This document shows, in pieces, positions 4,480-48,886 of a stretch of DNA of 64,000 bases (position 1 is its first letter; the number at the start of each line of letters is the position of its first letter). The DNA is from Leucoraja ocellata. Lineage: Eukaryota. Below the pieces are notes generated by a model. The model saw only the letters and a program-made list of their open reading frames with translations, was not told where the DNA came from and made no database searches. Position numbers and translations under genes: made by a program. The stretch is from positions 4,278,001-4,342,000 of the forward strand of contig JAWMAR010000102.1 of NCBI GenBank assembly GCA_036785375.1. Direction: 5' to 3'.

Positions 4480-5260
4480 CAACAACAAGGAAATGCTGCC
4501 GCACAACTGGAGGAGAGGGCGGGCGGGCGCCTCGACGCCCCTTCCAGCCGCCGCTAGCGACCTAGGCGTCCACAAAGAAACAAATCATAAAATACCCCCA
4601 CCCTTGGCTCCTTGAGGGGCCCAGAAACGTTGATTTGATGATTTGAAACGGCGATTATGTGGAAACCATCGCCGCCCCCTCTCCTCCCTGTTGCTGTGGT
4701 TAGTTCCACGTTGGTCGCATGTGTCCACAGCAGGGAACATGGGTGGCATCTAACAATTTCCACCCAGGGTGAAATCAACCTCGCCTGTGTTTTTTTGGAT
4801 TGAAAGTAGATAAATTCTGTATTTTTCCCTCACATGGTCAACAACCACCGGTGTTTCAAAGGCCCAGCGTCGTAATTGAGACTTATTATTGGCAGTGACT
4901 CCCCCTCCGGTGGTGGTAGGGCTGGGAGTAGGCGCATGCGCAGGTGGGTCCCGCCGCGCCTGGCGGTCCTCCGGTATCCCGGCATCCCGCTCGGCGTCTC
5001 CAGGCAGCCGGAGGCCGGGCTCGAGCGAGCGCGCCGACAACTCCGCTCCCGCTCCCGCTCCCCAGCCCGGCGCTTGATGGCGGCTCCCCGCTAACCTCGA
5101 GCTTTACACCGCACCATCTCTCGACGGAAACACCCCCCCCCCCCGCCAAAACAACAACAAAAAACTAACTCTGAACTTGGGGCGCGATCTTACCGGCTGT
5201 CCATGTCGAAGAGGTTAAGGAGCATCGACGTCTGCGCTGACTGCAGTGTCGCCGGTAAGT
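4480..5260. promoter_or_regulatory. CpG-island bidirectional promoter between ANKRD13A and GIT2
   Basis: GC/CpG-rich stretch between divergent ATGs at 4309 and 5203. NRF1-type palindrome GCGCATGCGC at 4932-4941, reverse CCAAT (ATTGG) at 4888-4892, GC boxes (GGGCGG) near 4517-4527. Confidence 0.8.
5203..5254 (+). CDS. GIT2: GIT2 exon 1 (ArfGAP zinc finger start)
   Basis: MSKRLRSIDVCADCSVA+G|gtaagt (human GIT2 MSKRLRSSEVCADCSGP). 52 nt. Confidence 0.96.
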
Positions 5261-34272: not shown

Positions 34273-35114
34273 TGGTCAAAGATTGTTGACCTCCTAGATC
34301 AGCGTTTCTCCTTTCCGTTAGAATGAAATGTGCGTGCATTGTATGCAGGAATTAATCAAAGTATTAATCAGTGTGTGAATTGATTTCACGCAGTTTATGC
34401 TTCTGTCATATTGTAAATGTTGGTAATGTTATTGCATAAACTCAATAAATATCTTTCCACTTATTTCTTGAATGCAACCCTTTGGAATAAAGGCACCTGT
34501 AAGTAATACATAACTATATAATTACTAGGTCCAATAGCTGATGATGATCAGTTTAATGTCAACAAAGATACTTGTATTAAAGTCCATGTGTGTTGTGATC
34601 CTTATCTTTAATGGAAAAACATAAGTCTGTGATTCTCATCCCAGATTGTGTCTCTGATGATCAAATTCTCGGGGGAGAGATTTGAATCAAGATAATATTA
34701 TTAGTGATGTTTCAGTGCTCGCTCTGTTTGCGTATTTTGAAATAACTTGACCATGACCACGTTTTTTTTTAATTAAGAATCAACTATGCATGCAATGCGG
34801 TAAATAGTCACTTCGTATTATGATATGTTCAATGTTGTTGCTATGATGCACCTTCAATTACTGGGATGAACTGTTACAGTAAACACAAACACAATACATT
34901 CCTCCAAATGTGTTGGGTTGGTTCTTATTTGAATGAGGCTGTCTAATAATGTAACAATACATAGTATAAGTACAAAGCCCATTCTCAGCAATGCTGCAGC
35001 CCAGAATAGGGGCTATACCAATTGGAAATAAGTATAACAGAAAAACTAAAAATAATAACAAATAGTGTTTATCTTACTTCATTAACACTGATATTCTTTA
35101 TAATTTGTCTTCAG

Positions 35115-35166
35115 TAGTTTGGACTTGTCAGAATTAGCAAAGGCAGCAAAGAAAAAACTTCAATCG
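35115..35166 (+). CDS. GIT2: GIT2 exon 9 (NAGNAG acceptor)
   Basis: ttcag|tag tandem acceptor, then SLDLSELAKAAKKKLQS|gtaagt. 52 or 49 nt. Confidence 0.96.
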
Positions 35167-42804: not shown

Positions 42805-42954
42805 AGCATGCACTCTGATCTGTCAGGTGGCCCAATTACCTTGCAGGAATACATGGAGGTGAAAAACGCCCTCAGTGCTTCCGAGGCAAAGGTGCAGCAG
42901 CTGATGAAAGTGAACAGCAACCTGAGCGATGAGCTGCGTCTGATGCAGAAGAAA
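42805..42954 (+). CDS. GIT2: GIT2 exon 14 (coiled coil)
   Basis: gtag|SMHSDLSGGPITLQEYMEVKNALSASEAKVQQLMKVNSNLSDELRLMQKK|gtaaga. 150 nt. Confidence 0.96.
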
Positions 42955-46978: not shown

Positions 46979-47243
46979 CTCTACATATATACTCTACAGT
47001 ATCTTTTTGTGACTTGCATTAAATTCTCAATACATGTAAATAGCTGTCTGCATACACACCTCCACAAATATATATATATATATATATATATGTATAATAT
47101 ATATATATATTTGTTTGTTTGTTTAAATAGATCAGAATCTTGATGTATTGAGAATAAAGAAAGATATACTGTGGAGGTGTGTATGCAGACAGCTATTTAC
47201 ATGTATTGAGAATTTAATGCAAGTCACAAAAAGATACTGTAGA
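46947..47243. repeat. (TA)n microsatellites plus a perfect 74-bp inverted repeat
   Basis: 46993-47066 is the exact reverse complement of 47170-47243. TA runs at about 46953-46978 and 47068-47110. Confidence 0.93.
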
Positions 47244-47355
47244 ATAATTAATGCTGCAGCTTCACATTTATTCATTTGATGACTATAAATTGCTGCTTTT
47301 AAACTGTGCTCTTTAATGTTATCTTGCTCTTTTTTTAATTGTATTGTACCTTCAG

Positions 47356-47367
47356 ACAGAATTCATG
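47356..47367 (+). CDS. GIT2: Candidate GIT2 12-nt microexon (TEFM)
   Basis: Pyrimidine-rich tract ending ttcag|ACA GAA TTC ATG|gtgagt. Phase 0-0 between exons 14 and 15. Confidence 0.6.
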
Positions 47368-47562
47368 GTGAGTGTAAGCAGATCAGTCCGTGCTTTTGCT
47401 CCGCCTGCCTAATTGTGCATCTCCTCTATCTGTGTCTGACTCGGTCGGTATAGGCCCATTTCCTTTATAACATGCACAGTCCACTTTGCGGAGATCACCA
47501 AAAAATATTCCAGCTTGATTTGATGTGAGAAAGGATGATTGGTTGAAAAACATTTCTTTCAG

Positions 47563-47811
47563 CTCCAAACGTTGCAGAGTGAAAACACCACCCTCAGGCG
47601 GCAGGTCACTACGAATATCTATCAAGTTCCCACCTGTCCAGAGTACCCAGGTCCCTCCAATCCTTCATCCTTAAAACGGCGCCCGTCCGCACGTGGCAGC
47701 CGGCCTATGTCCATGTACGAAACTGGCTCTGGTCAAAAACCCTATCTCCCACTGGGGGACGTCACCTACACAAAGGACAGTATTGCAGGACTTCAGCCCT
47801 TCCCACAACAT
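47563..47811 (+). CDS. GIT2: GIT2 exon 15
   Basis: tcag|LQTLQSENTTLRRQVTTNIYQV...SLKRRPSARGSRPMSMYETGSGQKPYLPLG...LQPFPQH|gtaagt. 249 nt. Confidence 0.97.
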
Positions 47812-48886
47812 GTAAGTAATTCACCATCAGCTCTGGTAAGCAACTCGTGCTTTTGTTCTTCCTTCTCCTTTTGTGCTAAGTTCTGACCTTTCCTTTGCAG
47901 CTTGCCAAATGCTGTCTTGATGTCTTCATACCTTTCTCCTACTACTATTTCAGTTTAGTGCAAAGCTAAGATTTTTTTTAATGAAAAATGTCTGGAAGAA
48001 TAAAAATGACACCTAGGTCATGTTAACCTTTTTGTCCTAAACCTTTTTCCATTTTATTATTTCAGGACTTGTGCTAACATACTCATTGTAATTTCAAGAA
48101 ATTAAAGACTGATAGACCTTCAACTAACTTGATTCGACCAGATGCTAACAGAGGGGGAAAAAAGAAAATGTCTGCTTGAACCACTAAATGGCATACAAGT
48201 ATTATAAAACCGTGTTCTTAAAACAAGCAGATTACCTACAGCAGAGTAAAGTTAAATTTTGTCATGTTTCATTTTGTGTGTACACCACGAATGGCAACAT
48301 TGACCGTGTAAGACCAGGTGCATCTCGATGCCTTGCCTGGTCTATGGCAATTTATCAGCTGGATTGTTGGAATTCAACTATCCCTTGGCTGGGGGAATGT
48401 GGGGTGAGGGTTACTGTCTCATCCTGTTGAGCACTGATGCTGGAGGCTCTGTACATTTTTTTTTTTTTTTTTTAGGTGAGGATTGAATTGGGCTTGGCTA
48501 TTCTGCTCTCTGTGATTCCAATCATTGCAGATAATCTGGCTCACACCTTGAGTATGTTCCTGCACTATTTCCACAGCCATAGCTTCCAAAATCAGACATG
48601 CCTCGCTGCTATGGGCAACTTTCAAAGCAAGGTGGCCTCAAGTTAGAACAAAGTGTTGGCATAACTTTTTATTTCTGTAAAGTTAGTCCAGCACTTTTCC
48701 TTGTCTTTTTTTTGTGGAGTTACACCAGCACTTTATCTTTTTTTTGTAAACCAGCATCTGCAGTTCTTTGCTTTTACGTTGATCCGCGAGTTGCCATGTT
48801 CTGAGGCCCAGTCCCCATATGATTCTGATGGCCTTTTGAAAGTTTTTTTTAATCATTGTTTCCATCTCGGATCATATGAGACATTT

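What the first reader, a model, noticed from the sequence alone, without database searches (positions are those of the whole stretch)
47356..47367. In-frame 12-nt microexon (TEFM) in the GIT2 coiled coil
Seen: an AG-free upstream tract with several TGC motifs (tgctgct, tgtgct, ttgct) and a T-run, then ttcag|ACAGAATTCATG|gtgagt with a consensus donor. It converts MQKK|LQTLQ to MQKK-TEFM-LQTLQ. Established: SRRM3/4-dependent neural microexons have upstream UGC motifs, and this region is the GIT dimerisation coiled coil. I do not recall this insert in canonical human GIT2. Inference: a 4-residue heptad stutter could retune dimerisation and GIT-PIX assembly.
Basis: partly seen in the sequence, partly recalled or inferred. 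Interest (0 to 1): 0.7.

Follow-up and report, generated by a model that had tools for sequence, protein, structure and literature searches.

The report
Unproven GIT2 microexon candidate in skate
A 12-base stretch in a skate GIT2 intron has the sequence signs of a tiny nerve-cell exon, but every transcript and annotated protein that could be checked here skips it, so it is likely a normally unused look-alike, and brain RNA would be needed to settle it.

Summary
The motif is real: ttcag|47356-47367|gtgagt, in frame, behind a 94-nt AG-free tract with four TGC, 195 nt upstream of exon 15 of a skate GIT2, inside the coiled coil. It is the only hit of its kind in the window (loose rule about 1 per 59 kb by chance, AG-free >=80 nt rule about 0.06). 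Use as an exon is not shown. Five of 7 runs laid join exon 14 straight to exon 15 and none shows inclusion (tissues unknown). 0 of 284 GIT2 proteins with the exon 14-15 junction carry an insert, while 49 of 370 carry GIT2's known 6-nt neural microexon (window 34493-34498). One low-depth contig of a related species has donor +5 G>T. For it: the intron just downstream is conserved in a shark, and 8 YGCY motifs flank it. Mouse brain mostly skips exon 14, so a neural exon here might join exon 13 instead, which my surveys barely sampled. Verdict: about 55% skipped look-alike in a regulatory stretch, about 40% real tissue-specific microexon; at best a new member of a known class. The scan's earlier notes held nothing on it.

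The parts
47356..47367 (+). Candidate 12-nt in-frame microexon (TEFM); inclusion not observed
   Evidence: skipped
47356..47373 (+). Alternative 18-nt in-frame form ending at a second, weaker donor (AGT|GTAAGC)
47260..47353 (+). 94-nt AG-free tract with four TGCT, a T-run and yUnAy branch-point candidates (A at -18, -40, -77, -82, -86, -92)
47291..47409 (+). Cluster of 8 YGCY motifs (4 upstream, 4 downstream of the candidate); MBNL-type by motif only
   Evidence: 8 in 141 nt against mean 1.6, reached by 0.3% of 5600 background windows; window chosen after the fact, 5 motifs tried
47390..47562 (+). Intron segment between candidate and exon 15, alignable to a shark read-through peptide (P0371)
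42805..42954 (+). GIT2 exon 14 (first part of the coiled coil), with an internal acceptor at 42847 that drops 14 residues
   Evidence: RNA contigs of X1, X6, X7 use 42847
47563..47811 (+). GIT2 exon 15 (end of the coiled coil, LQTLQ...)
34493..34498 (+). 6-nt microexon (RHL), likely orthologue of the known neural GIT2 microexon; internal positive control
   Evidence: zebrafish DreEX0034907 / human HsaEX0027514 in PMC12626424 supplement

Best explanation
The 12 nt are likely a normally skipped splice-site look-alike (a silent or barely used pseudo-microexon) lying in a conserved, probably regulatory stretch of GIT2 intron 14 just ahead of the alternatively spliced exon 15. Shown: the acceptor, donor, AG-free tract and YGCY cluster exist; the transcripts seen join exon 14 directly to exon 15. 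Inferred: the spliceosome fails to define so short an exon without a dedicated activator; the TGCT/YGCY cluster and the conserved intron segment serve control of the exon 14-16 cassette region (MBNL-type) rather than inclusion of TEFM; the coiled coil is tuned by the known route, namely exon 14 skipping or shortening and early terminal exons.
For: RNA: X1, X7 (contiguous contig coordinates) and X2, X5, X14 (loose end equals the exon 14 tail) all skip it: 5 of 7 runs laid, 2 organisms, 3 studies; none shows inclusion. Proteins: 118 of 118 cartilaginous-fish and 166 of 166 other proteins that hold both exon 14 end and exon 15 start join them directly, while 21 of 175 and 28 of 195 carry the 6-nt microexon, so the annotations do catch tiny neural exons in this gene; the longest Amblyraja radiata isoform (X1, 801 aa) has the 6-nt exon and no TEFM. 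Two exon-14-less proteins (P0346, P0378) also have no insert. A contig of related organism B has donor +5 G>T, TT>AA in the T-run and a change in the -40 branch candidate. The zebrafish list of neural exons has one git2a entry, the 6-nt exon. 1138 nt upstream of exon 15 in a teleost-like contig hold no GTRAG donor; the skate GIT1 intron has no counterpart. Nearest TGC is at -31, upstream of the T-run, whereas the 6-nt exon has it at -20. GIT2 E16 splicing changes in myotonic dystrophy samples (PMC7181699 figure legend).
Against: The motif is rare by chance (0.003-0.06 per gene length under the tighter rules), on the sense strand, in frame, with an AG-free zone (94 nt) like that of the true 6-nt exon (97 nt). 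Tissues of the runs are unknown and all include exon 14, so they may all be non-neural; contigs drop rare forms, and one search's tables were cut. The protein searches were seeded with exon 14 or the direct junction, so inserts and exon-14-less forms are under-sampled. The organism-B contig has depth 4.8 (may hold errors) and leaves the 12 nt, AG, GT and all 8 YGCY unchanged. Shark conservation reaches to about 22 nt from the donor. An X1 intronic contig begins at 47367, one base from the donor.
Confidence: 0.55

Rival explanations
1. It is a real SRRM3/4-dependent neural microexon of skates or elasmobranchs, missed by annotation. In neurons SRRM3/4 would bind the TGC motifs and switch it on; with exon 14 present the four residues would make a heptad stutter near the end of the dimer coil, and with exon 14 skipped (as in mouse brain) they would be a short linker between exon 13 and exon 15 in a monomeric GIT2.
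For: Architecture; rarity; branch candidate at -40 against a median of 45-47 nt for neural microexons (PMC12871342 section 20); three SRRM_C matches in the genome; conserved downstream intron; T and M would fall on a and d; lineage-specific microexons are common in zebrafish (PMC12626424 passage).
Against: No inclusion in 7 runs or 284 junction-spanning proteins although 49 proteins carry the neural 6-nt exon; donor +5 change in organism B; TGC not between the T-run and the AG.
Confidence: 0.28
2. It is a real but non-neural or low-level exon (for example MBNL-activated in muscle or heart, possibly as the 18-nt form), or a young exon that gained its strong donor only in this skate lineage.
For: YGCY on both sides; the second donor GTAAGC is unchanged in organism B while the first is weakened; both genomic copies keep the site.
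Against: Annotations of many cartilaginous fishes show no such insert; YGCY enrichment was found after the fact; direction of the +5 change cannot be polarised.
Confidence: 0.12
3. The acceptor at 47355 serves as an upstream alternative 3' splice site of exon 15 (207-nt extension), or the AG at 47259 opens a 108-nt exon; both carry in-frame stops and would yield truncated or decay-targeted transcripts.
For: Both readings contain stops; intron-14 end sequence is present in contigs of X1 and X2 and at the front of the spliced shark protein P0371.
Against: The X2 contig runs on upstream of the acceptor (47275), as unspliced RNA or DNA would; no joint from exon 14 to either acceptor was seen; P0371's start may be a gene-model artefact.
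Confidence: 0.05

Closest known systems
GIT2 6-nt neural microexon (zebrafish DreEX0034907, human HsaEX0027514)
   Same: Same gene; tiny, frame-preserving; long AG-free zone and TGC upstream in the skate copy (97 nt, -20).
   Different: It lies 13 kb upstream, before the Spa2 domain, is annotated in 49 of 370 proteins and has measured neural inclusion (PSI 88) and srrm3/4 dependence (PMC12626424 and PMC9303857 supplement rows). The 12-nt candidate has none of this evidence.
GIT1 27-nt microexon (exon 8, GIT1-A)
   Same: SRRM4-bound microexon in the paralogous ArfGAP scaffold (PMC6317919 passages).
   Different: Different gene and position; not in the coiled coil (position recalled, not tested); the skate GIT1 intron after the coiled-coil exon has no counterpart of the candidate.
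GIT2 delta-BC / delta-BCE splice variants
   Same: Alternative splicing of the same exon 14-16 region controls dimerisation and GIT-PIX assembly (bioRxiv 10.1101/538223, abstract and passages); the region-B acceptor is used in skate RNA.
   Different: These remove coil residues wholesale and are documented; the candidate would add four residues and is undocumented.
Coiled-coil stutter (4-residue insertion in a heptad repeat)
   Same: Insert length 4 at a g/a boundary, T on a and M on d.
   Different: Definition recalled, not from a call; only a register count was made, no structure of the insert form.

Membership tests
SRRM3/4-dependent neural microexon | 3-27 nt, AG/GT bounded, usually frame-preserving | tested here: met
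   12 nt (or 18 nt), phase 0, no stop
SRRM3/4-dependent neural microexon | Long branch-point-to-AG distance / AG-free zone | tested here: met
   94-nt AG-free zone, yUnAy at -40 and -77; motif scan only, no branch-point predictor
SRRM3/4-dependent neural microexon | UGC between branch point / pyrimidine tract and the AG | tested here: inconclusive
   Nearest TGC at -31: downstream of the -40 branch candidate but upstream of the T-run; UGC is present in 74-79% of such exons and not strictly needed (bioRxiv 2024.09.17.613571 section 10)
SRRM3/4-dependent neural microexon | Strong 5' splice site | tested here: inconclusive
   ATG|GTGAGT in both genomic copies, but +5 G>T in a depth-4.8 contig of organism B; no MaxEnt model available
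SRRM3/4-dependent neural microexon | Included in neurons, skipped elsewhere | tested here: inconclusive
   Skipped in 5 of 7 runs, 1 junction not shown, 1 without any read; tissues unknown
SRRM3/4-dependent neural microexon | Dependence on SRRM3/4 | not testable with these tools
   Only the regulator domain was looked for: 3 SRRM_C matches in the genome
SRRM3/4-dependent neural microexon | Conserved across jawed vertebrates (typical, not obligatory) | tested here: not met
   0 of 284 junction-spanning proteins; only the 6-nt git2a entry in the zebrafish table; no GTRAG in 1138 nt of a teleost-like intron end, which is not the whole intron. The exon site itself could not be read in sharks or rays.
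GIT2 (ArfGAP, GIT family) host gene | ArfGAP, ankyrin, Spa2, coiled-coil and C-terminal domains in order | tested here: met
   Exons mapped by tblastn of P0128; Pfam on P0128; exon 14 98% identical to Amblyraja GIT2
Coiled-coil stutter | Four-residue insertion within a continuous heptad repeat that stays helical | tested here: inconclusive
   Register fits but the protein form is unobserved and was not folded
MBNL-regulated exon / element | Clustered YGCY near the exon and response to MBNL | tested here: inconclusive
   Cluster present; YGCY as MBNL motif from abstracts; response not testable

The most novel reading that the evidence does not exclude
Cartilaginous fishes have a second, unannotated GIT2 microexon, lost or never gained in bony vertebrates, that neurons switch on to put a four-residue stutter into the dimer coil (or to bridge exon 13 to 15 when the coil exon is skipped), giving a microexon dial on GIT-PIX assembly.
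Probability: 0.3. Interest if true: 0.45.

Novelty: new member of a known kind. Interest (0 to 1): 0.2.

Why it matters
If silent, it matters little: a caution that microexon-like motifs arise by chance and that GIT2's real neural microexon is the 6-nt one. If real, it would add a lineage-specific microexon to a scaffold whose dimerisation is already known to be set by splicing in brain, and would be a clean natural test of how a four-residue stutter alters a two-stranded coil and GIT-PIX assembly. A search for microexon + coiled coil + stutter found 0 papers, and GIT2 + microexon found 2 papers, of which the one read in passages does not describe this exon; that is weak evidence of absence from print, as most subscription papers and VastDB itself were not searchable.

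Tried and rejected
No RNA holder on record was listed; runs are guessed RNA. The one raw-read run X21 laid 0 reads: no test. The first lay (8 kb) was swamped by repeats, most joint and loose-end rows were not shown, and X6's 30 letters before exon 15 were not displayed. Short-protein search with exon 15 gave 7 read-through ORFs, none reaching the candidate; the representatives search gave 36 hits, 27 inspected at the exon 15 start, none with an insert. The metagenome scan gave 1 locus, teleost-like, with no local similarity to the candidate above shuffles. Repeat origin: no other copy of 47200-47500 outside the duplicated gene (the search skips common words). Supplements of PMC7821500, PMC12626420 and PMC12868881 had no Git2 entry, but the first two had no Git1 entry either, so they are uninformative. 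The 77-bp hairpin upstream was considered as a regulator and set aside: 4 other such inverted repeats in 290 kb. Divergence between the two genomic copies around the site (2 changes in 303 nt against 1.35% in the rest of intron 14) is too little to test constraint. The likeness of TEFM to QEYM at the start of the coil was seen by eye, not tested, and set aside as probable chance. No structure or complex job was sent, since the insert form is not available as an observed sequence and the skip form is a solved fold. Five look-ups in the scan's earlier notes gave nothing relevant. The GIT review (PMC6518221) is not held.

Full report
Observation. Exon 14 (42805-42954) ends in phase 0 on MQKK and exon 15 (47563-47811) starts LQTLQ, so the 12 nt are in frame and read TEFM. 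A second donor six bases on allows an 18-nt form. The host gene is a skate GIT2: exon 14 is 98% identical to Amblyraja radiata GIT2 and that protein's exons map in order along the window. The junction lies inside the GIT coiled coil (Pfam GIT_CC 412-476 of P0128; solved GIT1 coil 2w6a matches 419-475).

Chance. Under a loose rule (YAG, 3-27 nt in multiples of 3, GTRAG, AG-free zone >=40, TGC, >=60% pyrimidine) this is the only site on the + strand and there is none on the - strand. The same rule gives 0.76 sites per 59 kb in 300 local Markov shuffles and 13 in 799,600 strand-bases of sampled own genome, 9 from one repeat family. With an AG-free zone >=80 nt the rate is 0.057 per 59 kb (0 in the 799,600; 1 in an earlier 240,000). 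The strictest rule, fitted after seeing the site, gives 0.003. The motif is uncommon, but a 3.4-Gb genome will hold many chance ones, so the motif alone leaves about even odds (my estimate).

RNA. 21 runs were listed, none on record as RNA except one raw-read run; 7 were laid. X1 and X7 have single contigs in which exon 14 is followed at once by exon 15. In X2, X5 and X14 the letters before 47563 are the exon 14 tail. X6's junction letters were not displayed, and X21 laid no read. An inclusion contig would have shown a different loose end; none did. Limits: contigs drop rare forms, tissues are unknown, the tool flags X2 as probably DNA although it holds spliced contigs, and one search's tables were cut. 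One X1 intronic contig (depth 4.9) spans 47367-47529, starting one base from the candidate donor; this is unexplained and may be coincidence.

Proteins. Of 370 GIT2 proteins held, 284 contain both the end of exon 14 and the start of exon 15, and all 284 join them directly (118 of 118 among 175 cartilaginous-fish proteins). As a positive control, 49 of the 370 (21 of 175) carry a 2-residue insert from a separate 6-nt exon, found in the window at 34493-34498. That exon matches in gene and length the known neural microexon git2a DreEX0034907 / human HsaEX0027514 (neural PSI 88, srrm3/4-dependent; supplement rows of PMC12626424 and PMC9303857); the orthology is my inference. It is the only git2a row in that paper's table of zebrafish neural exons (708 exons by the text). 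The protein set is biased: one search was seeded with exon 14, with the direct junction, only the best 120 of 2138 and of 4105 hits were listed, and isoforms of one species are not independent. Only two exon-14-less proteins were seen (P0346, P0378), both without insert.

Conservation. A depth-4.8 contig of related organism B covers 47275-47592 with 7 differences: the 12 nt, AG, GT and TGC motifs are unchanged, but donor +5 is T instead of G, two T of the T-run are A, and the -40 branch candidate is altered (the tool warns such a contig may hold errors). Against this, a shark-like protein (P0371, exon 15 identical to Stegostoma proteins) starts with 54 residues read from the intron end; as a back-translated profile its first 40 codons align to the skate intron downstream of the candidate with score 20.8 against 12.7 +/- 1.9 (0 of 300 controls), and its first 20 codons align near 47390-47445 with P about 0.03. 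So the intron between candidate and exon 15 is conserved in elasmobranchs, up to about 22 nt from the donor, but the exon site itself could not be read, and flanks of an alternative exon 15 would be conserved anyway. A teleost-like contig has no GTRAG donor in the 1138 nt before exon 15, and the skate GIT1 intron has no counterpart.

Regulatory reading. All four upstream TGC are TGCT, and four more YGCY follow the donor: 8 in 141 nt against a mean of 1.6 (0.3% of 5600 background windows; post hoc, five motifs tried). YGCY is the MBNL motif (abstracts), and GIT2 E16 splicing shifts in myotonic dystrophy samples (PMC7181699, figure legend). For SRRM3/4 the relevant UGC is sought between the pyrimidine tract and the AG (bioRxiv 2024.09.17.613571, passages and section 10); here the nearest TGC lies upstream of the T-run. 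Long branch-point distance is typical of neural microexons (PMC12871342 section 20) and is met. The genome has three SRRM_C matches.

Mechanism if included. The exon 14/15 boundary falls between heptad positions g and a; TEFM would put T on a and M on d and shift the rest by four, which is a stutter by the usual definition (recalled). But the main mouse-brain GIT2 lacks exon 14 and cannot dimerise or assemble with PIX (bioRxiv 10.1101/538223, abstract and passages). If skate brain does the same (untested), a neural exon here would join exon 13 to exon 15 and the stutter idea would not apply; it would also mean that the exon-14-containing runs I laid are non-neural and do not test the neural case.

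Verdict. Best explanation (0.55): a normally skipped look-alike within a conserved regulatory stretch before exon 15. Rivals: real neural microexon of skates or elasmobranchs (0.28), non-neural, low-level or young exon including the 18-nt form (0.12), stop-carrying alternative acceptor (0.05). These odds are my judgement. It is not filed as an SRRM3/4 microexon: inclusion is unshown and the conservation test was not met where it could be run. Even if real it is a new member of a well-known class. Interest 0.2.

Papers seen: PMC6724607 (passages), PMC6317919 (passages), PMC12626424 (passages, supplement rows), PMC12626420, PMC7821500, PMC12868881 (supplement searches, no hit), PMC9303857, PMC7935315 (supplement rows; the latter showed a 90-nt GIT2 exon in the 2 of 4 rows seen), PMC12871342 (abstract, one section), bioRxiv 2024.09.17.613571 (passages, one section), bioRxiv 538223 (abstract, passages), PMC7181699 (passages). 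Schlenker and Rittinger 2009 and Premont 2000 only as cited in bioRxiv 538223.

Noticed in passing
window 34493-34498: 6-nt microexon (RHL) with a 97-nt AG-free zone and TGC at -20; annotated in several sharks and skates; likely the orthologue of the known neural GIT2 microexon.
   Followed up: yes
window 42847: Internal acceptor in exon 14 removes 14 residues (region B); it is the form in RNA contigs of X1, X6, X7 and in 13 cartilaginous-fish isoforms. The skipped piece carries two skate-type residue changes against sharks (SMHSDLSGG versus SMDSDLSDG).
   Followed up: partly
window 46990-47066 and 47170-47246: 77-bp inverted repeat, 99% complementary, between (TA)n tracts, ending 109 nt before the candidate; folds as a long hairpin (z -19), present in both gene copies and nowhere else found; 4 other such repeats in 290 kb.
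   Followed up: partly
G000:C102 about 4,025,000-4,092,000 (L009-L015, L004): The whole GIT2 gene is repeated about 253 kb upstream on the same contig at about 98% identity: a haplotype duplicate in the assembly or a recent duplication.
   Followed up: partly
window 47812-47835: In-frame 24-nt 3' extension of exon 15 to a second GTAAGC donor; matching 8-residue inserts are annotated in Chiloscyllium and Carcharodon isoforms.
   Followed up: partly
window 48066-48764: Early terminal exon (DLC then stop), the GIT2-short type ending; transcribed in X6.
   Followed up: partly
window 47545-47562: The exon 15 acceptor is conserved far beyond skates: unnamed read-through proteins P0190, P0191, P0368, P0373 share the same last intronic codons.
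   Followed up: partly
window 35115-35117: Tandem (NAGNAG) acceptor giving the one-residue DS/DSS variants seen in many isoforms.
   Followed up: no
L052, - strand position 4954 (G000:C8 1.50-1.51 Mb): Another 9-nt microexon-like site (76-nt AG-free zone, TGC, GTAAGT) met in the background sample; and a repeat family that by itself fulfils the loose microexon rule with a 24-nt pseudo-exon.
   Followed up: no
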